From: an uncultured Candidatus Saccharibacteria bacterium | Lineage (GTDB): Bacteria; Patescibacteriota; WWE3; UBA101185; UBA10185 | Reading direction: 5' to 3' | Length of the DNA: 51,671 nucleotides | Assembly (NCBI GenBank): GCA_964385105.1 | Contig: CAYLMU010000002.1 | Span: 1 to 51,671 of the forward strand | Shown here: piece by piece, positions 16,368 to 26,409 of the stretch | Layout: the number at the start of each line of letters is the position of its first letter | Position numbering within the stretch: position 1 is the first letter of the stretch | Program-made: the position numbers and the translations under genes | Notes under the pieces: generated by a model | What the model was told of the DNA's origin: nothing | Seen by the model: the letters and a program-made list of their open reading frames with translations, nothing else | Databases searched by the model: none

Positions 16368-18995
16368 ATGTCTGCTATTGTTATTTCCACACCACCTTTA
16401 TCAGGAGGACAACTAGCCGAGCAACTTTGGCCGACCGATGAAGACGCTAAGCAAGAAACAGCTGTTTATAATGAGCTCCCCCAAAATCGTCAAGAAAGAA
16501 ATAGAATATTGGATGATCTTTCTGAGAGAGCATTTTCAGATGATGAAAAGCAGAAGTGGGATAGCGAAACAAGACGTGCCATTGTTGCATTTGGATTTGC
16601 CGGATATTTAGAGCTTCATGAAACTGGTACAGATGGAGTAAGACAGGTACATTGTAATCTGGAAAAGTTCAAATCGCCTGATGTTACGTGGACACAATTA
16701 AGTCAAGACTTAGGTTCTATTGTATATGAAAATACATCAAGAGGAACCAGAAGAAAAACTATAGCACAAACACTTGCTGATTTTTCAGAAAATCTTGGAA
16801 AAATAAGAGCCTTAAACGATGATAGTAATACTGATGAAAAAGAGCTCTTTTATGTTCCGGGAAGTGGTGCACTTAATCCTAAAATAATAAAGGAGACAGC
16901 AGCTCATTTGGGTTTGTGGGAAACATACCCGGTAAAAACTTTTTCTGAAAAATATCCAACAAAAGAAAGTGGATTTGAAGAGAATGTAACTGATGTTGTT
17001 GTTTCAGCACTTGTTTTTGGACAAAATTGGGGTAACGGTTTTCGTGATGAAGAAGGAATTTTGCAGGTTCGCTACCCGGATGGCACAACAGGAAGACTTA
17101 CAGGTGATTTCTTTAAAAAGTGGGGATTTTCAGGAAGGGTCGCAGGTATTAATGAGTGTATCTATAATAAGCCTCAATCGTATTTGGATTCCCATTGTGC
17201 TCAATTATTAGAGCAAGATGTGATATCACTGGATGATTTTAGAGGTCATTCAGGTGAAGGTGGGATTTATGAAGAAAAAAGATTGACGGGCCGCAATTTT
17301 AAGCACAAAGGTAGTGTTACTGTTGACGGTGTTATTTACTATCTGGGTACAAAGTATGAGAATGATAGGTATTCTGTAACCAAACTTTCATCGGAGTATG
17401 CAGTAGTAATAAGAAAAACACGACGAGGTTCTGGCGAACAGCAAGAAATAGATAGTATCTTTAGATTGTTAAGTGCAGATGAAAAGAAAAGCCTTAAACA
17501 AGAGAAATCATTTCCATTCCTAACCAGAACTGAGCTAGAAGAAATTGGTATTTTTTCACCTGAGCAATTCGTGCAGAAAGTTCCTGAAGCTGAACAAGTT
17601 TTTGAAGAGTGGAAGAATTTTCTAAAATTTTCTAATAGCTTGGAAGCTGCCGGTGTTAAAATCATGGACTATACTTTGAGACAGCAAACACAGTTGTGGG
17701 AAGTTTTTTCCAGAGACCCCAATTTAAAAGTCGAGAGTTTTATAGGAGGTCAACAGTTGTCAGATTCCGAAATTGATAATCGTGTAAAAACATTACTTGT
17801 GCTTGCAGGTAATGTAAAAAACCTAAGTAAAATGGTTGAAATAGCAAAAAATGGTAATGTAGAATTTTTATTTGAAAATATTGCAGCAATTTCTGACATT
17901 GTAAGTAATTTCGAAGAATATCAAAGACAGTCTGATATATACTCTGACGTTGAACTGGATCGAATGAGACAGATAAGTGACATGATTTTAAGGCATTCAT
18001 CAAGGTTGTTTTTGTCTGCACACGAAGTACTTAATAAGGATAAGAGTGTAAGCATCCAGGATGTTACATTTGTTTTGTACCGGTATCGTAAAAGCGTAGA
18101 AAAATGGCATTATGAACAATTTTTACGTTCAGGGAGTTCGAGTGATAATCCATATTTAAGACTTCTAGGTCTTTTTGATGAGTCAGATGAGGGGTCAAAT
18201 ATGCAAACACTGCTATTAAGTATGATCGAGCAATACTGGAGGGATGATGTCGTACGCGAATCAACTGGTATGAAGAAGTCAAGCGTATCTGTTTTAGATA
18301 GAATTAAAGGATTTTATGACGGCAATAAAGAATTATTTGAAACCGCGGCTGAAACAACAGGTGACACACAAACGGAATTACAAGCGTTAGAGAAGTTCTT
18401 TAACACATTTGAAAAAATAGATGGATATGTGCTTGATTTGGCATGTGGGGATAGAAAGCGAATTACTGAACCTATGGCAGAAATGTTACGCGGAAAGGCA
18501 AAAGGAGTAATAGGCATGGATATTTGGTCACCCGGTGAAAATACCGTAGATGGACTTCATGTTGTTCAAGGTGATATTGGTTCGATACCTCTGGCTTCAG
18601 ATTCTGTAGATGTAGCAACTTTAAACTGGTCACCGCCCAATGACTGGGTAAGTAGAACTGAACAACTGGTGAATTTTGATGAGATTGGTCGTGTTATGAA
18701 AGCAAATGGCGTGATCAGGTTGGATGTTGCGCATCTGGAAGGCGGAGAAGGGAGCTGGATGAAAACAGTTACGGAACAACACTCTGATGGCGCGGAAAAA
18801 TTTGGAGATATGAAAGTAATGTTTCCTGGGGGCAGGGAAGGAGAGTTTCATATATATCCAGCCTCGGAATTAAGAGCAATGCTAACAAATGCCGGTTTTG
18901 GAAATATAGCTTTAACCAGGTGGACTACCAAAAGTGGTAAACCAAGAGTCGTTATTACCGCTGATTTTAAAGGCCACCAAAATCCTATTCGCTAG
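16368..18995 (+). CDS. 875-aa protein with unknown N-terminal region and C-terminal class I SAM-dependent methyltransferase domain
   Basis: Motif I YVLDLACGD, VIGMDIW, VVQGDIGSIPLASDSVDVAT. Confidence 0.8.
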   Translation: MSAIVISTPPLSGGQLAEQLWPTDEDAKQETAVYNELPQNRQERNRILDDLSERAFSDDEKQKWDSETRRAIVAFGFAGYLELHETGTDGVRQVHCNLEKFKSPDVTWTQLSQDLGSIVYENTSRGTRRKTIAQTLADFSENLGKIRALNDDSNTDEKELFYVPGSGALNPKIIKETAAHLGLWETYPVKTFSEKYPTKESGFEENVTDVVVSALVFGQNWGNGFRDEEGILQVRYPDGTTGRLTGDFFKKWGFSGRVAGINECIYNKPQSYLDSHCAQLLEQDVISLDDFRGHSGEGGIYEEKRLTGRNFKHKGSVTVDGVIYYLGTKYENDRYSVTKLSSEYAVVIRKTRRGSGEQQEIDSIFRLLSADEKKSLKQEKSFPFLTRTELEEIGIFSPEQFVQKVPEAEQVFEEWKNFLKFSNSLEAAGVKIMDYTLRQQTQLWEVFSRDPNLKVESFIGGQQLSDSEIDNRVKTLLVLAGNVKNLSKMVEIAKNGNVEFLFENIAAISDIVSNFEEYQRQSDIYSDVELDRMRQISDMILRHSSRLFLSAHEVLNKDKSVSIQDVTFVLYRYRKSVEKWHYEQFLRSGSSSDNPYLRLLGLFDESDEGSNMQTLLLSMIEQYWRDDVVRESTGMKKSSVSVLDRIKGFYDGNKELFETAAETTGDTQTELQALEKFFNTFEKIDGYVLDLACGDRKRITEPMAEMLRGKAKGVIGMDIWSPGENTVDGLHVVQGDIGSIPLASDSVDVATLNWSPPNDWVSRTEQLVNFDEIGRVMKANGVIRLDVAHLEGGEGSWMKTVTEQHSDGAEKFGDMKVMFPGGREGEFHIYPASELRAMLTNAGFGNIALTRWTTKSGKPRVVITADFKGHQNPIR

Positions 18996-19755
18996 ATTCT
19001 TCGTAAGACTTTTCAAAAGCAAGCTTAAATATAGATTTTAGTGTAGTAGCTAAGTCTTTGTTTTCTATAAGTACGCCTACAAATTTACCTTTCTCAAAGC
19101 TCAACATAGCTATTTTATTATCATACACATCAATTTCCGCCGGCAGAGGATATTTCTCTTTGTTAAGCAGAACACTCTTTCGTAATGAGATTTCATCTTT
19201 CTTACTAACTTCACGTGCAGTAGGCGAGTCAGCAATGAAAGAATTTGCAAAAACTTTATTATTGATACGTAACGGAATAAGTTTCTTTTGTATATAGTCC
19301 GGAATGGCTTGATTGGCTTTCTCAAAGTCTACTGCACCATATACCACTTCATCTTTTGGGCTGTATATATCATCGAAAATTTTTTTTATACCTGTTAAAT
19401 CTTCAAAATACGTAATGCCGGGCTTTGTAGTTTGCAATAGATAGCTTGATTCAAGTTGAGGCATAATAGCTTCAAGTGATCGTTGTTGAGCAATAGTTTG
19501 ATTTAAGTCAGATTCAATTTGCTGTAAAAGTTTATTTGGATGTTCAGGTCTGAAGTGGGTCTTTTTATTTCTTTGAAACGTAGAAACTAGCCCTCTCTTT
19601 TTTAGATCATCAAGATATTTATAAATCATCCCTCTTTTATATGGAGCTTGTTTTGTAAGTGTGGCGGCAGAAATTTCACCATTTTGTAGCAAAATATCAT
19701 AAATTGTTGCTTCCCCCTCGCTTAAACCAGAATCAACTAAAAACTTTTTGTACAT
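18985..19755 (-). CDS. TrmB-family wHTH transcriptional regulator
   Basis: GLSEGEATIYDILLQNGEISAATLT..KRGMIYKYLDDLKKRGLV; C-terminal EIDVYDNKIAMLSF and LKSIFKLAFE. Confidence 0.88.
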   Translation of the reverse strand: MYKKFLVDSGLSEGEATIYDILLQNGEISAATLTKQAPYKRGMIYKYLDDLKKRGLVSTFQRNKKTHFRPEHPNKLLQQIESDLNQTIAQQRSLEAIMPQLESSYLLQTTKPGITYFEDLTGIKKIFDDIYSPKDEVVYGAVDFEKANQAIPDYIQKKLIPLRINNKVFANSFIADSPTAREVSKKDEISLRKSVLLNKEKYPLPAEIDVYDNKIAMLSFEKGKFVGVLIENKDLATTLKSIFKLAFEKSYEESSE

Positions 19756-19784
19756 GTAATTAGAGTATATAAGTTAGTGTCATG

Positions 19785-19913
19785 TGTCAATAAGATGTTG
19801 ACAAGTACTAGAACCCATAGTATAGTATATAACACTGATGTCACAGGAAGAATGTATATTACTCTGATGTTTGTCAACACATACTTGACAAGTATAAAAC
19901 TATAGGGTAAGAT
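19785..19913. promoter_or_regulatory. Twin TGTCAA-N7-TTGACA palindromes forming overlapping divergent sigma70 promoters
   Basis: Palindromes at 19785-19803 and 19872-19890, both followed by AGTA. + strand: TTGACA-17-TATAGT and TTGACA-17-TAAGAT. - strand: TTGACA-17-TACTCT, 6 nt before the TrmB ATG. Confidence 0.7.
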
Positions 19914-19919
19914 ATAAAC

Positions 19920-20900
19920 ACTTGAAAAATAAATAGCTAACAAAAAGCAGATCCTACCAGATCTTGATTCTACCTAAAAAGATTGCTGCTAAGCCAAAAA
20001 GGCCCTGTAAAGGCTTTACGGCGACACATTTAGAAAGCCAAGATTTGGTAAAGAAGTCTAAAAACCTTGATATAGCAACCTATACAAGGAATTGCATTTC
20101 TTTTCAGATCTTGGCTTTTTTCGTTTTTGCCTTAAATGTGCAATAAACATTGATATATTGCAAGCAAAAGCTTGTCTAGGAAACACGGGACACCTTTAAG
20201 AACCCAATTTGGAAGTTATCTAGAAACAAACTGTCCATAACCGGGAGAGAGACTTAAACGGACCTACCGACTTCTCGGACAAGCTTTTGCTTGAAATTCA
20301 AATACGAATTCAGGCAGCATTTGGCTTAAATACAAGCCAAACATTGAAATTAAAATAAAGCTGCTGTTTATACATTTGCCCCTACCGGCCAAACTTGGGT
20401 ATATCCCATGGTTTGATGTGTAGCAGAATAAAGCTTAAAACTTGCCAAATGCTTTAACAAAAGTAAGTGGCAACCGAGAATCTGTTCCATTGGCCGGCAA
20501 ATTTGCCTGCCTGAAAGGAAAGAGTGGCTCAAAACTGACAAAAGAGACAAACGATTGCTTAAAAACGTAATGAACATCAATTTGTTCTTACGAAAAGTAA
20601 AGTAGGTAATTGGCTAAATGGTCATTAGAAACACTTTAGCTATAGCCAAAAAAGCTTTACTTCCTACCTTTCGTGAATCCTGCCAAATAAATTCATGGAT
20701 ATTACGAAAAGGAGAGGATCAAAGTTATTGTTACTTAAGCAAATAGGCTTAGGTGCAGGCTTTGGTTTCCTGACTGCGCTTTTAGCGGTGGCGAAAATGT
20801 TGCCGGTGAAGGTGCAGATTAGGAAGGACTTCTTCCTAAACAGAAATCTCTCCGTAGGTATTAGCTTACGGATACAAATGCCGGCGCCTGAAACGCTGGA
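19920..20900 (+). ncRNA. Candidate large structured non-coding RNA or leader (about 1 kb)
   Basis: No credible ORF; nested inverted repeats, e.g. perfect 16 bp 20161-20176/20278-20293, TTCAGGCAG/CTGCCTGAA, CCGGCCAA/TTGGCCGG, AAAGCCAAGATTTG/CAGATCTTGGCTTT. Confidence 0.45.
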
Positions 20901-20911
20901 AGGAGATTAAA

Positions 20912-21241
20912 GTGAAGATTTATGAATTCACAACCAACTGGAATCAAACAGTTGGCGTCGACGGGGACTATCGGCATGTGATGCCGTTGGGCGACCTCCC
21001 CCATGTCTCAACGTACGAGGATGCATATGCATTCCTCGTTTACGACGGGGCGATAAAATGGGGAGAGGAAATTGTGGTGGTGTTTTCCCCAGGGGGGGAC
21101 ACCATGTCAATCTTTAACGAGGTCGAAATCGGCCTTGTTAAGCAGGTTGGGCCGTCAGAGCTGTCTTTTTTGGCTCTGAGCTGGTGGCTTGAAAATCAAG
21201 GGATGACCCCTGAGGACATGGAGGAATTTCTCAGAGGATAA
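20912..21241 (+). CDS. Hypothetical protein (109 aa)
   Basis: GGAG SD plus GTG start; protein-like composition. Confidence 0.7.
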   Translation: MKIYEFTTNWNQTVGVDGDYRHVMPLGDLPHVSTYEDAYAFLVYDGAIKWGEEIVVVFSPGGDTMSIFNEVEIGLVKQVGPSELSFLALSWWLENQGMTPEDMEEFLRG

Positions 21242-21784
21242 TCCCATTTTTCTACGACGCAAGCTAGTATTCTTTTTTTAGAGTATGACACTTGCGTCTC
21301 CACTTTAAACTTTAACTATAAATTGAAGTTTAAGCTGGAGAATAATAATTTAGTAGGATTAGGAAGAATTGAGGGACTACGCTAACCCTCAAAAAGCACT
21401 GTAATAGGGTAATTTAACCATTGCAGAATGCTTTTATCTCTTCCTACCAATTAAAAATACGTAGTTATCAAGTTGCTGTGTGTAGATGTTTGCAAAACGT
21501 GCGGGTTGTTAAACGTCTGCATCAGCTACCGGATAACTGAGGTAGTTTGGTTTGTTGTGTCTTTAATTAGGCAATGACAACTTAAATGATCTTGATTTAT
21601 CGGTAGCGGCTTGTTCTACCTGCCTATTTAATAGAACTGCCGACAAGTTCTTTGAAAACCGAATATCAAAGAATGTTAAATGATTGAGAAATTAGATTTT
21701 AGCAGTTAGGGAAGTGGATGGTGTTATAAAGCTTTTTATGGCTTATAGCATTGTACGCTTCCCGGGGCTGCATATCCTATAGAG

Positions 21785-21813
21785 TTGACATGGTGTAAGA
21801 CCTATAGTATAAT
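21785..21813 (+). promoter_or_regulatory. Consensus sigma70 promoter
   Basis: TTGACA-17 nt-TATAAT, exact consensus. Confidence 0.85.
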
Positions 21814-22814: not shown

Positions 22815-22957
22815 GGGGCCGACAGGCGTCGACTTCGCGGAAATAGTTTCGGTAGAGGGAAAATGCCCAAGCAAAAACCTCGAAAAAACTTGGTCAGCCT
22901 AAACCCTGACGACAAAAAAAGCCGTGAAGGACCTGGGTTCGATTCCCAGCGGCTCCA
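22815..22957 (+). ncRNA. Miniature tmRNA-like RNA: tRNA-like domain, helix 2a and pk1, no normal mRNA-like domain
   Basis: Acceptor stem GGGGCCG/CGGCTCC-A with G3:U wobble. ssrA-like 5' end GGGGCCGACAGGCGTCGAC. T-arm CTGGG-TTCGATT-CCCAG. CTTCGCGG/CCGTGAAG helix. Pseudoknot GAGG/CCTC plus CCAAG/CTTGG. Only 143 nt; CCA not encoded. Confidence 0.8.
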
Positions 22958-25262: not shown

Positions 25263-25448
25263 ATGAAGCTTGTTATTGAAGTGCCTGGCGAAAAGCATAA
25301 GGGCAAAATAACTAGGGTAAAAGACTTACTGAAATGTCTTTCGGGCCTTTGGCAAACCTCACCGCAAGGGAGGCGACTGAGAAGGTTCGGCCGGTACGCC
25401 GTGTTAGTTGCGTATAAAGGGAAAAAAGAGAATGAGTACGTTGTATGA
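25263..25448 (+). CDS. Hypothetical small basic protein
   Basis: MKLVIEVPGEKHKGK; overlaps next gene. Confidence 0.5.
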   Translation: MKLVIEVPGEKHKGKITRVKDLLKCLSGLWQTSPQGRRLRRFGRYAVLVAYKGKKENEYVV

Positions 25449-26409
25449 TTTGAGTTCTGTATTAGCAAATCCTGATGATGTTGAGGATTTGCAATTTCAA
25501 CTCAATAGAGAGTTGGAGTATGTGATACTCGCAGTGCAAGCACTGCGGTATGAATACTCCGAAGCCGATCTTGGCTATGGAAAGCAGGGAAACCTGTCTT
25601 TCAAAGGTCGTGCTCCCGAGTTGAAGACAAAGGCAGCCAGAGTGGCAGACTGGCTGATTTGGCTTCGGGATGGAACTCCTGAAGAGGCAATGATGGGAAT
25701 TGCTGAGAGTATTTCTCAGCTAATTCGTGAACTCGACTACACTTTGTCGTATGACAAAGACAGTAGAGAGTTTTTCCGGATTCTCGGGGAACTGGAATAC
25801 AAAGGTCGCTACGCGGCCTTTTATCCTGACACTCGGGAGGTGCTCGTGGAGTTTGACACGCTTGAAGAAGGATTGGAGTTTGCAAAACAAGCTCCTATTT
25901 TTCTTACAAGTGTTGTCGAAGCTTTCCGTGCGCAGCGGGAAAACAACATGATTCGTTGGTATTTCGATGCTGACGGGTCGATGGTAGATGGTGGAAAGAT
26001 TTTTACCACCCAATACCAAAATTGGAAGACCGTTACGCTTTTGAAGGGTTTAGGGTTTGAAGTCGACCGTGAGAGGGTCGGGGACAATTTGGTCACGAAA
26101 AGTGGACCGGTTGTTCACATCTTTCACGGTTGGGAACCATCGAAAGATGGTTCACGTCTCACAAGCGGGGACGATCTATCTAACCCCGATTCCCCGCACT
26201 ATGGCCGCCGGTACCTTGATGCGTTTCTTTTTTGGACGCCCGAAGGTTACGCCGACGTTGTAGTGTGGAATTCCAGTCCCCATGGGGACGACCAACTGTA
26301 CGAAGTTGTTGGTCTGTCCTCTTACGAGGATTGGAAGGTGTTTGTGGAAGAGCGCCCAGAGGAATTTGGTTTGAGCCACTGGCTCGAATTCAATTCCATC
26401 TCGCTCTGA
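25432..26409 (+). CDS. Hypothetical protein (about 325 aa)
   Basis: Long ORF with purine-rich RBS before ATG 25432. Confidence 0.8.
   Translation: MSTLYDLSSVLANPDDVEDLQFQLNRELEYVILAVQALRYEYSEADLGYGKQGNLSFKGRAPELKTKAARVADWLIWLRDGTPEEAMMGIAESISQLIRELDYTLSYDKDSREFFRILGELEYKGRYAAFYPDTREVLVEFDTLEEGLEFAKQAPIFLTSVVEAFRAQRENNMIRWYFDADGSMVDGGKIFTTQYQNWKTVTLLKGLGFEVDRERVGDNLVTKSGPVVHIFHGWEPSKDGSRLTSGDDLSNPDSPHYGRRYLDAFLFWTPEGYADVVVWNSSPHGDDQLYEVVGLSSYEDWKVFVEERPEEFGLSHWLEFNSISL

What the first reader, a model, noticed from the sequence alone, without database searches (positions are those of the whole stretch)
19920..20900. About 1 kb of continuous multi-domain RNA structure behind a strong promoter
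Seen: a chain of closed domains. 20034-20118 has a 14-bp helix enclosing CCTTG.TATAG/CTATACAAGG. 20161-20293 has a perfect 16-bp helix. 20309-20515 is closed by TTCAGGCAG/CTGCCTGAA and encloses CCGGCCAA/TTGGCCGG and several hairpins. 20565-20690 has TTGGCTA/TAGCCAA and GTAAAG/CTTTAC. More hairpins continue up to the SD at about 20902. Inference: a large ncRNA in the size class of GOLLD/ROOL/OLE, or a giant regulatory leader.
Basis: partly seen in the sequence, partly recalled or inferred. Interest (0 to 1): 0.72.

Follow-up and report, generated by a model that had tools for sequence, protein, structure and literature searches.

The report
New 0.8-kb structured leader RNA
The flagged kilobase is a real folded RNA of about 800 bases that matches no Rfam family; it is conserved beside the same regulator gene in at least eight ultra-small (Patescibacteria) bacteria, opens with a transcription stop/go switch, and probably gates a fast-changing island of unknown genes.

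Summary
Window 19756-20911 has no usable reading frame under any stop-codon reassignment.

The stretch is one copy of an RNA that matches no Rfam 15 family. Collinear homologues lie at the same place, divergent from a TrmBL2-like regulator gene and behind twin operator/promoter boxes. They occur in seven other Patescibacteria loci whose regulator is only 55-66% identical.

Compensatory base changes support:
- the terminator stem
- domain B (20161-20293)
- two elements of domain C
- domain D

New anatomy:
- A conserved intrinsic terminator lies about 200 nt after the start. A competing antiterminator overlaps a CCUACC loop motif.
- CCUACC occurs 3-5 times per RNA, and its reverse complement never occurs.
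- A 3' module has three co-varying strands next to a Shine-Dalgarno-like GGAGAG.

Downstream genes differ in every relative.

Best reading: a multi-checkpoint cis-regulatory leader read by an unknown CCUACC-binding factor. A stand-alone large ncRNA is not excluded.

No transcript data were obtainable.

The parts
18985..19755 (-). Divergent regulator gene (256 aa): winged-helix TrmB domain, long coiled coil and C-terminal domain. The fold is that of TrmBL2.
   Evidence: Pfam PF01978, E 2e-10. AlphaFold2 model with pLDDT 92. Foldseek full-length best match is TrmBL2 5bqt, E 4e-13. Homologues are 55-66% identical in all loci that carry the RNA.
19785..19826 (+). Operator-like palindrome TGTCAAT-N-TTGACA and promoter P1 (TTGACA-17-TATAGT).
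   Evidence: Promoter scan scores 11 of 12. Repeat D11. Conserved block in 8 sequences.
19872..19913 (+). Second operator-like palindrome and promoter P2 (TTGACA 19885-19890, -10 TAAGAT 19908-19913). The predicted start is near 19920.
   Evidence: Promoter scan scores 10 of 12. CTTGACA...AACTATAGGGTA.AAT is conserved in all relatives.
19920..20122 (+). Domain A, a terminator/antiterminator module.
- CCUACC (19953-19958) sits in the loop of the AGAUC/GAUCU hairpin.
- The antiterminator strand is 19955-19966.
- A second (U)CUACC lies at 19969-19974.
- The terminator 5' arm is 20037-20050, the 3' arm ends at 20115, and the T-run is 20116-20121.
   Evidence: Terminator stem: 22 pairs, 92% of cells paired, 8 pairs changed on both sides, 0 of 500 shuffles reach this. 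A hairpin plus T-run lies 116-202 nt into the seven extracted RNA stretches, which begin a few bases before the predicted start. A nascent RNA cut after the 5' arm folds that arm onto the segment beginning inside CCUACC in 6 of 7 homologues. The duplex is -17.3 kcal/mol against -8.3 +/- 2.1 for shuffles.
20161..20293 (+). Domain B. A 16-bp closing helix is extended by a covarying stem. The conserved ACGGGACA (20185-20192) pairs through CGG with CCUACCGA (20263-20270). GGGAGAGAG lies at 20243-20251.
   Evidence: 27 pairs, 93.4% of cells paired, 15 pairs changed on both sides, 0 of 500 shuffles, slid controls give 5 or fewer. Model R1 scores 100-128 bits in the 7 complete loci and 88 bits in L053, where the contig end truncates the match.
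20300..20535 (+). Domain C.
- A variable hairpin at 20312-20341.
- CCUACC at 20381-20386.
- A conserved GGUAUAUCC hairpin at 20390-20414.
- A conserved G(R)GAAUCUG-hairpin-AGAGUGGCYCAA element at 20497-20533.
   Evidence: GGUAUAUCC hairpin: 9 pairs, 8 with compensatory changes in 6 sequences. 3' element: 11 pairs, 86% paired, 15 cells changed on both sides, covariation score reached by 0 of 500 shuffles.
20540..20562 (+). Conserved A-rich linker AAAAGAGACAAACGAUUGCUUAA, predicted to be mostly single-stranded.
   Evidence: Conserved block in the alignments.
20566..20720 (+). Domain D, a three-strand switch.
- Hairpin s1 GUAAUGAAC (20567-20575) / GUUCUUAC (20584-20591).
- s2 ACGAAA at 20590-20595.
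- A lineage-specific insert at about 20596-20662.
- CCUACC at 20663-20668.
- s3 UUUCGU at 20669-20674.
- CCUGCC at 20679-20684.
- s4 ACGAAA at 20704-20709.
- Shine-Dalgarno-like GGAGAGG at 20711-20717.
   Evidence: s2, s3 and s4 change together. The window and L058 have ACGAA(A)/UU(U)CGU/ACGAA(A). L054, L056 and L006 have ACAAA/UUUGU/ACAAA. L001 has the compensatory pair GUAGUA/UACUAC in the s1:s4 pairing.
20728..20910 (+). Either a 60-aa ORF (TTG start 10 nt after GGAGAGG, stop overlapping the start of the next ORF) or a 3' extension of the RNA. Unresolved.
   Evidence: ORF and its upstream sequence. nhmmer homology to L056 runs to about 20823, and in L056 the stretch is non-coding and followed by tRNA genes. 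The 88%-identical relative in run X6 has net +1 indels here.
20912..21241 (+). First clear ORF of the island (109 aa, orphan).
   Evidence: It matches only itself among 5.8 billion proteins. No Pfam, PHROG or NCBIfam hit.

Best explanation
Window 19920 to about 20720 (possibly to about 20840) is one member of a structured RNA family of about 0.8 kb that is absent from Rfam 15.

Two tandem sigma-70-type promoters transcribe it rightward. Each promoter is overlapped by a TGTCAA-N7-TTGACA palindrome, presumably an operator of the divergent TrmBL2-like regulator.

The RNA most likely works in cis, as a multi-checkpoint leader for the variable gene island behind it.

Checkpoint 1, shown by sequence and comparison:
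- The first ~200 nt end in a conserved intrinsic terminator.
- The terminator's 5' arm can instead pair with the segment that begins inside the first CCUACC motif.
- The RNA can therefore adopt a read-through form or a termination form.
- In the termination form, CCUACC is displayed in a small hairpin loop.

Domains B and C follow the terminator with no room for a promoter in most relatives. They can therefore be made only by read-through.

Checkpoint 2, shown by three-way co-variation:
- In domain D, strand s3 pairs either with s2 or with s4.
- Pairing with s2 puts CCUACC in the loop and frees the Shine-Dalgarno-like GGAGAG.
- Pairing with s4 also pairs the last CC of CCUACC with the first GG of GGAGAG.

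Inferred, not shown: a trans-acting factor, a protein or an RNA, recognises the exposed CCUACC loops (4 exact copies in this RNA, 3-5 in the relatives). By choosing between the alternative folds, it would set how much transcription and translation reaches the island.
For: Not coding:
- All three stop codons are frequent in all six frames.
- No ORF is conserved after GGAGAG.
- No peptide is conserved in any one frame.

Structured:
- Window z -12.
- The homologues fold 28-59 kcal/mol below shuffles.

Conserved:
- nhmmer with the window alone finds collinear matches over window 19772-20736 in L058, L054, L001, L056 and L003 (E 2e-27 to 6e-12), and weaker matches in L053 and L006.
- All are confirmed on iteration.
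- All lie upstream of the TrmB gene, in ORF-free gaps of 0.9-1.65 kb.

Covariation.

Strand:
- 33 G-U cells against 2 A-C cells in the terminator stem, and 14 against 6 in domain B.
- The T-run and the promoters point the same way.
- CCTACC occurs 28 times and its reverse complement 0 times.

Terminator: conserved in 7 of 7 homologues.

Antiterminator:
- It is the MFE fold of the nascent RNA in 6 of 7 homologues. These include L003 and L006, whose terminator arms have a different sequence.
- 82% of cells are paired, against 28-55% when the partners are slid.

CCUACC exposure: mean unpaired probability 0.63, against 0.39 for the RNA as a whole.

Domain D: the three strands co-vary.

Domain B follows the terminator within about 5-40 nt in most relatives.
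Against: - No transcript evidence: no RNA run holds the stretch. The start, the termination and the read-through are all predicted.
- Only 7 complete sequences and 1 partial one were available.
- In the alignable sequences the antiterminator pairing shows no covariation beyond the shuffles. Its support is conserved pairing potential plus the two divergent cases.
- L001 lacks a good antiterminator.
- The genes behind the RNA are not conserved, which is unusual for a cis-regulatory leader.
- In several relatives no ORF starts after GGAGAG. In L056, tRNA genes follow. Translational control therefore cannot be the general output.
- About 600 nt of conserved domains B and C have no assigned role in this model.
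- The CCUACC reader is unidentified.
Confidence: 0.55

Rival explanations
1. The RNA is a stand-alone large non-coding RNA: a ribonucleoprotein scaffold, a multivalent decoy for a CCUACC-binding factor, or a catalytic RNA. On this reading its function does not depend on the genes behind it. The variable island simply uses, or inserts next to, a conserved and strongly expressed RNA gene.
For: - Downstream genes differ in every relative, while the RNA, its promoters and the regulator are conserved.
- About 600 nt of covarying domains B and C lie beyond the attenuator.
- An exposed motif is repeated 3-5 times per RNA, as in sponge RNAs.
- In L056 the next genes are tRNAs, which are stable RNAs.
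Against: - No conserved terminator or other defined 3' end was found after domain D.
- A conserved terminator lies inside the RNA at about +200.
- The 3' end carries a Shine-Dalgarno-like motif inside a switch.
- The family has a narrow distribution: 8 loci, and none in the more distant TrmB loci.
Confidence: 0.25
2. The stretch holds several separate RNAs. One would be a ~200-nt small RNA running from P2 to the conserved terminator and acting in trans. Downstream pieces would be released by processing at the long perfect helices, which look like RNase III substrates.
For: - A promoter-to-terminator unit of about 200 nt is conserved in 7 of 7 homologues.
- The 16-bp perfect helix (20161-20176 with 20278-20293) and the long, bulged terminator hairpin stem (20037-20115, about 20 pairs in the outer run) are long enough to be RNase III substrates (the substrate length is from my own knowledge).
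- Window 20131-20159 has a weak TTGCCT-17-TATATT promoter-like site (read).
Against: - In most relatives only 5-20 nt separate the terminator from domain B, which leaves no room for a second promoter.
- The antiterminator is conserved, which argues that read-through is intended.
- No processing data exist.
Confidence: 0.12
3. The stretch is not a functional RNA. It would be a decayed gene, a neutral spacer, a protein-coding stretch read in another code, or a mobile-element end or attachment site.
For: - The island behind it has a higher G+C content and consists of orphan genes.
- Assembled contigs of relatives often break in this region.
Against: - Sequence homology persists over 0.9 kb between genomes whose neighbouring protein is only 55-66% identical.
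- Compensatory changes occur in five separate helices.
- No frame is open under any stop-codon reassignment.
- No integrase or transposase was seen, and there are no flanking repeats.
- No phage or viral-contig match was found.
Confidence: 0.03

Closest known systems
Factor-dependent transcription attenuators (TRAP/trp leader, PyrR/pyr leaders, BglG-SacY/RAT, ANTAR two-hairpin targets); named from my own knowledge
   Same: An intrinsic terminator competes with an upstream antiterminator. A short motif, displayed in small hairpin loops and present in two nearby copies, overlaps the antiterminator strand. Binding a factor there would therefore decide between read-through and termination.
   Different: - The motif (CCUACC) matches none of those systems, and no binding protein is known or encoded nearby.
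- No Rfam model for those leaders matches.
- The terminator is followed by about 600 nt more of conserved structure.
- The downstream genes are not a conserved operon.
Large 'ornate' bacterial ncRNAs: OLE, GOLLD, ROOL, raiA, HEARO (PMC12286853, PMC9723947, PMC10861870)
   Same: It falls in the 0.5-0.8 kb size class. It has several covarying domains with islands of invariant nucleotides and no ORF, its biochemical role is unknown, and some members of that group also sit next to mobile or variable DNA.
   Different: - No sequence or structure match to any of them.
- It has an internal conserved terminator and a 3' Shine-Dalgarno-like switch, so it looks like a leader.
- It is known so far from only 8 Patescibacteria loci.
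- It is fixed next to a TrmBL2-like regulator rather than to the partner proteins of those RNAs.
Cis-acting processive antitermination RNAs (phage HK022 put, EAR of Bacillus eps operons); from my own knowledge
   Same: A structured RNA lies at the head of a long, one-directional gene array whose spacers are full of hairpins.
   Different: There is no similarity in sequence or fold, and no evidence here that the RNA modifies RNA polymerase. This is an idea, not a result.
Unpublished AI notes of this scan on other Patescibacteria genomes: 0.35-1.2-kb structured leader RNAs behind promoters beside TrmB-family regulator genes, heading variable orphan islands (e1-3750803, e1-833531, e1-2030948, e1-1553531)
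   Same: The layout is the same: a TrmB-family regulator gene, a strong promoter, a large ORF-free structured RNA (one of them with a terminator-bounded 5' unit of about 230 nt), then a variable island of orphan genes.
   Different: No shared sequence words with this window, so homology is unproven. Those notes are unchecked leads, not independent evidence.

Membership tests
Any Rfam 15 family (including GOLLD, ROOL, OLE, HEARO, raiA, T-box, PyrR, riboswitches, RNase P, 6S, SRP, group I/II introns) | A match to the family's covariance model at or above its gathering score. | tested here: not met
   No match in 19600-21300 at gathering score. With E up to 10 there were only four chance-level hits to eukaryotic miRNA, snoRNA and IRES models, all far below gathering. 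Seven homologous loci gave only three tRNAs.
Large structured bacterial ncRNA (generic class) | More than about 500 nt, with no conserved ORF. | tested here: met
   The ORF-free gap is 1156 nt, with stops in all frames. No conserved peptide. The conserved core is about 800 nt.
Large structured bacterial ncRNA (generic class) | Secondary structure supported by compensatory changes in several domains. | tested here: met
   Domain B has 15 of 27 pairs changed on both sides. The terminator has 8 of 22. The GGUAUAUCC hairpin has 8 of 9. The domain C 3' element has 6 of 11. Only 6-8 sequences were available, so the statistics are modest.
Large structured bacterial ncRNA (generic class) | A discrete transcript with defined 5' and 3' ends. 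| not testable with these tools
   No RNA runs hold the stretch. No conserved 3' terminator was found after domain D.
Terminator/antiterminator attenuator leader | An intrinsic terminator (G+C-rich hairpin plus U-run) between the promoter and the downstream sequence. | tested here: met
   Hairpin 20037-20115 plus TTTTTT at 20116-20121. The equivalent is present in 7 of 7 homologues, and the stem covaries.
Terminator/antiterminator attenuator leader | A mutually exclusive upstream pairing with the terminator's 5' arm. | tested here: met
   It is the MFE fold of the nascent RNA in 6 of 7 homologues, always starting inside or just after the first CCUACC. 82% of cells are paired, against 28-55% for slid controls. 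Covariation within the alignable rows is not above the shuffles, so this is conserved pairing potential rather than proof.
Terminator/antiterminator attenuator leader | A conserved regulated gene or operon downstream. | tested here: not met
   The downstream genes differ in every relative: orphans, HNH plus helicase, Csx3-like, and tRNAs. Only one weak shared protein was found.
Terminator/antiterminator attenuator leader | An identified ligand or binding factor. | not testable with these tools
   The CCUACC motif is repeated and exposed.
Protein-coding gene or pseudogene | An open frame, or a conserved peptide in one frame, across relatives. | tested here: not met
   The conserved ATGGnUAUUAC is explained by an RNA helix with a compensatory change in L001, and it has no Shine-Dalgarno sequence before it.

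The most novel reading that the evidence does not exclude
The RNA would be the conserved head module of an RNA-centred gene-cassette platform peculiar to Patescibacteria. A TrmBL2-like repressor would gate one strong promoter. The 0.8-kb RNA, loaded through its CCUACC loops with a dedicated factor, would act on the transcribing polymerase or on ribosomes, for example by processive antitermination or by ribosome loading. That would let an ever-changing, hairpin-dense array of foreign, G+C-richer genes and small RNAs be expressed as one unit. Here the array includes a mini-tmRNA, and in a relative it includes tRNAs. Domains B and C would then be a new functional RNA class, not passive leader sequence.
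Probability: 0.15. Interest if true: 0.85.

Novelty: new variant of a known kind. Interest (0 to 1): 0.64.

Why it matters
Large conserved structured RNAs are rare in bacteria, and each class found so far (OLE, GOLLD, ROOL, raiA) has opened a line of work.

Patescibacteria make up a large share of bacterial diversity, yet almost nothing is known about how they regulate genes.

This RNA offers a concrete, testable object:
- a defined promoter/operator pair
- a terminator/antiterminator module with a six-base loop motif that can be mutated
- a second three-strand switch

It sits at the entrance to the most variable part of the genome, which may hold host-interaction or defence genes.

First-stage readers of this scan flagged the same family, or the same layout, in other genomes. 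That suggests a general organising principle of variable islands in this phylum, not a curiosity of one genome.

Tried and rejected
- **Alternative genetic codes.** TAA, TAG and TGA are all frequent in all six frames of 19756-20911. Rejected.
- **Conserved small ORFs.** Stop-to-stop peptides of the 7 homologues were compared by blastp. Only weak hits appeared, in mixed frames and on both strands. The conserved ATGGnTATTAC is an RNA helix. Rejected.
- **Known RNA families.** Nothing in Rfam at gathering or permissive thresholds.
- **Phage origin.**
  - No blastn match in 50,697 phage records.
  - Two exact 22-24-mers are absent from IMG/VR.
  - A degenerate domain-C pattern gave 29 IMG/VR hits. 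None matches the RNA profile, so they are chance.
- **Protein anchor.** The 109-aa ORF has no homologue, so the TrmB gene was used instead.
- **More distant TrmB loci** (L007-L052, L059-L061). Short upstream gaps, and no nhmmer or CM match.
- **Defence or phage annotation of the island and relatives' cargo.** Only an HNH domain and a weak Csx3 hit.
- **Covariation test of the antiterminator on alignment A2.** Not above the shuffles.
- **Domain D alignment.** MAFFT misaligned the window row because of the ~70-nt insert, so it was re-read by hand.
- **CCUACC pairing.** No perfect complement (GGUAGG) occurs in any of the seven RNAs. By my own reading of the sequences, CCUACC also does not pair with the GGAGAG motif or fit as an anti-Shine-Dalgarno mimic. 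Left unexplained.
- **K-turn or loop-E reading of the G(R)GAAUCUG/AGAGUGGCYC element.** It does not fit the consensus. Dropped.
- **A dinucleotide-shuffle script** timed out and was replaced by 8 mononucleotide shuffles. These cannot tell the strands apart.
Full report
**Observation**

The stretch lies in an ORF-free gap, window 19756-20911. On its left is a leftward 256-aa regulator gene (18985-19755). On its right is a rightward 109-aa orphan ORF (20912-21241).

This includes the perfect 16-bp pairing of 20161-20176 with 20278-20293.

The + strand folds to -321 kcal/mol, against -231 +/- 7.5 for dinucleotide shuffles (z -12.1). The - strand gives z -5.3.

Two sigma-70-type promoters point into the stretch: TTGACA-17-TATAGT at 19798-19826 and TTGACA-17-TAAGAT at 19885-19913.

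**Not coding and not a known RNA**

- TAA, TAG and TGA each occur several times in all six frames, so no stop-codon reassignment opens a frame.
- Rfam 15 finds nothing at gathering score. At E up to 10 it gives only noise.
- Phage records hold nothing similar.
- The 109-aa ORF matches only itself among 5.8 billion proteins.

**Relatives**

The source is an activated-sludge metagenome. A sludge run from another study (X6) holds a relative that is 88-92% identical.

The regulator has homologues in Patescibacteria. I fetched their contigs.

In seven distinct relatives the regulator is 55-66% identical. These are L001/L005 (a MAG labelled uncultured Candidatus Saccharibacteria), L003/L004, L006, L053 (partial), L054, L056 and L058. 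In each, the regulator gene is preceded by an ORF-free gap of 0.9-1.65 kb.

nhmmer with the window sequence alone gives the following:

| Locus | E-value |
|---|---|
| L058 | 2e-27 |
| L054 | 1e-23 |
| L001 | 7e-23 |
| L056 | 1e-20 |
| L003 | 6e-12 |
| L053 and L006 | weaker |

- The matches are collinear over window 19772-20736. For L056 the match runs to about 20823.
- Iteration confirms all of them.
- More distant TrmB loci have short gaps and match neither the profile nor a covariance model of domain B.
- The homologous RNAs also fold 28-59 kcal/mol below shuffles.

**Covariation**

| Element | Pairs | Cells paired | Pairs changed on both sides | Control |
|---|---|---|---|---|
| Domain B (20150-20305) | 27 | 93.4% | 15 | 0 of 500 shuffles; slid partners give 5 or fewer |
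| Terminator stem | 22 | 92.3% | 8 | 0 of 500 shuffles |
| GGUAUAUCC hairpin (20390-20414) | 9 | not counted | 8 (in 6 sequences) | none run |
| G(R)GAAUCUG-hairpin-AGAGUGGCYC (20497-20530) | 11 | 86% | 6 | covariation score reached by 0 of 500 shuffles |

G-U cells outnumber A-C cells 33 to 2 in the terminator stem and 14 to 6 in domain B. With the T-run and the promoters, this fixes the + strand.

**Anatomy, domain A (about 19920-20122)**

All seven homologues have a strong hairpin followed by a T-run. It lies 116-202 nt into the extracted RNA stretches, which begin a few bases before the predicted start.

Upstream lies CCUACC (19953-19958), in the loop of a small hairpin. In most relatives a second copy follows 15-18 nt later.

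The segment that begins inside the first CCUACC (19955-19966, UACCAGAUCUUG) repeats the terminator's 3' arm and can pair with its 5' arm (20039-20050). That duplex is -17.3 kcal/mol, against -8.3 +/- 2.1 for shuffled leaders.

I cut the RNA just after the terminator's 5' arm, as during transcription. This pairing is then the minimum-energy fold in 6 of 7 homologues. These include L003 and L006, whose terminator arms have a different sequence.

On the alignment, 82% of cells pair, against 28-55% for slid partners. There is no covariation beyond the shuffles, because both strands are nearly invariant in the alignable rows. I therefore count the antiterminator as well supported but not proven.

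**Anatomy, domains B and C**

Domain B follows the terminator within about 5-40 nt in most relatives, which leaves no room for a promoter. It can therefore be made only by read-through.

Domains B and C hold invariant islands: ACGGGACA, CCUACCGA, GGUAUAUCC, GAAUCUG, GAGUGGCYCAA and AAAAGAGAC.

**Anatomy, domain D (20566-20720)**

Read by hand, because MAFFT misplaced the window row, the order is:
- hairpin s1/s2
- CCUACC
- s3
- CCUGCC
- s4
- GGAGAG

Strand s3 is complementary to both s2 and s4, and the three change together. The window and L058 have ACGAA(A)/UU(U)CGU/ACGAA(A). L054, L056 and L006 have ACAAA/UUUGU/ACAAA. This is the signature of alternative pairings.

In the s3:s4 form, the last CC of CCUACC pairs with the first GG of GGAGAG. 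In the s2:s3 form, CCUACC is a loop and GGAGAG is free.

GGAGAG is a working Shine-Dalgarno sequence in these genomes, for example AAGGAGAGAACGATG in L003.

**The motif**

- CCTACC occurs 28 times in the seven RNAs, 3-5 per RNA, at homologous places in domains A, B, C and D. Its reverse complement never occurs.
- In the window, all five + strand copies lie between 19953 and 21448.
- Its bases are predicted unpaired with mean probability 0.63, against 0.39 for the RNA as a whole. The central A is almost always free.
- GAGAG occurs 22 times and its reverse complement 0 times.

**The 3' boundary**

No ORF is conserved after GGAGAG.

The window has a possible 60-aa ORF at 20728-20910. Two results count against it:
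- RNA-level homology to L056 runs into it. In L056 the stretch is non-coding and is followed at once by tRNA-Glu, tRNA-Gly and tRNA-Trp.
- The X6 relative has net +1 indels there.

I leave this open.

**Context**

The regulator model (pLDDT 92) matches the archaeal TrmBL2 over its full length, with E 4e-13.

A convergent protein of about 875 aa with a methyltransferase domain is the only other syntenic gene.

Behind the RNA, every relative has different genes, mostly orphans. L058 has an HNH nuclease and a helicase. L003 and L056 have a Csx3-like protein. No defence system was recognised.

**Mechanism**

Shown:
- a conserved structured RNA
- its strand
- a conserved terminator
- a conserved competing pairing
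- a three-strand switch
- an exposed repeated motif

Inferred:
- The palindromes are operators of the TrmBL2-like protein.
- An unknown factor binds the CCUACC loops and chooses between the folds.
- The output is how much transcription, and in some lineages translation, reaches the island.

The main rival is a stand-alone large ncRNA. It is favoured by the non-conserved cargo and by 600 nt of unexplained conserved structure. It is disfavoured by the internal terminator, the missing 3' terminator and the Shine-Dalgarno-linked switch.

**Comparison with what is known**

The RNA works like factor-dependent attenuators (TRAP, PyrR, RAT and ANTAR systems; named from my own knowledge) but is a member of none of them. 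It is in the size class of OLE, GOLLD and ROOL (PMC12286853) but matches none.

Paper searches found no description of such an RNA in Patescibacteria.

AI notes of this scan describe the same layout in other Patescibacteria. Two first-reader notes flag this very family, in the L006 genome and in one further genome. They are leads, not evidence.

**Limits**

- No transcript data.
- 7-8 sequences only.

Noticed in passing
L056:2249-2476 (- strand, which is the RNA's strand): In one relative the structured RNA is followed about 100 nt later by a cluster of tRNA-Glu(ttc), tRNA-Gly(tcc) and tRNA-Trp(cca). The window's island instead holds a 143-nt mini-tmRNA (22815-22957). In both cases stable-RNA genes sit in the variable slot.
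   Followed up: partly
L003:16358-16448 (- strand), leader to 16138: A second copy of the operator/promoter box (TTTGTCAAAACATCCTTGACA...TATAAT) lies elsewhere in a relative's genome. A ~220-nt leader with two terminator-like hairpins and a GGAGAG Shine-Dalgarno sequence follows it, ahead of a 174-aa gene. The regulator therefore probably controls more than one promoter.
   Followed up: partly
window 21785-21813 and 21441-21449: A perfect-consensus promoter (TTGACA-17-TATAAT) inside the island shares ACCTATAGTATA with promoter P1. The spacer before it carries another TTCCTACCAA, like the domain A motif.
   Followed up: no
window 20113-20147: In runs X2 and X3, a 35-nt piece around the terminator T-run also matches long, high-depth contigs of some other organism (33.5 kb at depth 46, with 5 mismatches). 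It is probably a chance or low-complexity match.
   Followed up: no
L053, L055, L057, L062, L063, L064 (contig ends 66-540 nt upstream of the TrmB gene): Assembled contigs of many relatives break inside or just before the RNA region. This may reflect strain variation or coverage changes at the variable island.
   Followed up: no
window 25408-26409 vs L001:243-578: The C-terminal 135 aa of the 333-aa island protein are 27% identical (E 1e-5) to a 299-aa protein in the L001 island. This is the only island protein shared with any relative.
   Followed up: no
window 16368-18995: An 875-aa protein with a single methyltransferase domain (residues 689-783) is convergent with the regulator gene and overlaps its 3' end by 11 nt. 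It is syntenic in every relative, including those that lack the RNA. Its first 680 residues match nothing.
   Followed up: partly
L003:7356-7670 and L056:155-463: Small proteins in two relatives' islands hit Pfam Cas_csx3, the Csx3 CRISPR-associated family (a ring nuclease, from my own knowledge). E is 1.5e-6 for the L003 protein. The L056 hit is the precomputed 'weak' mark, and I did not scan it myself. No CRISPR array or cas genes were seen nearby.
   Followed up: no
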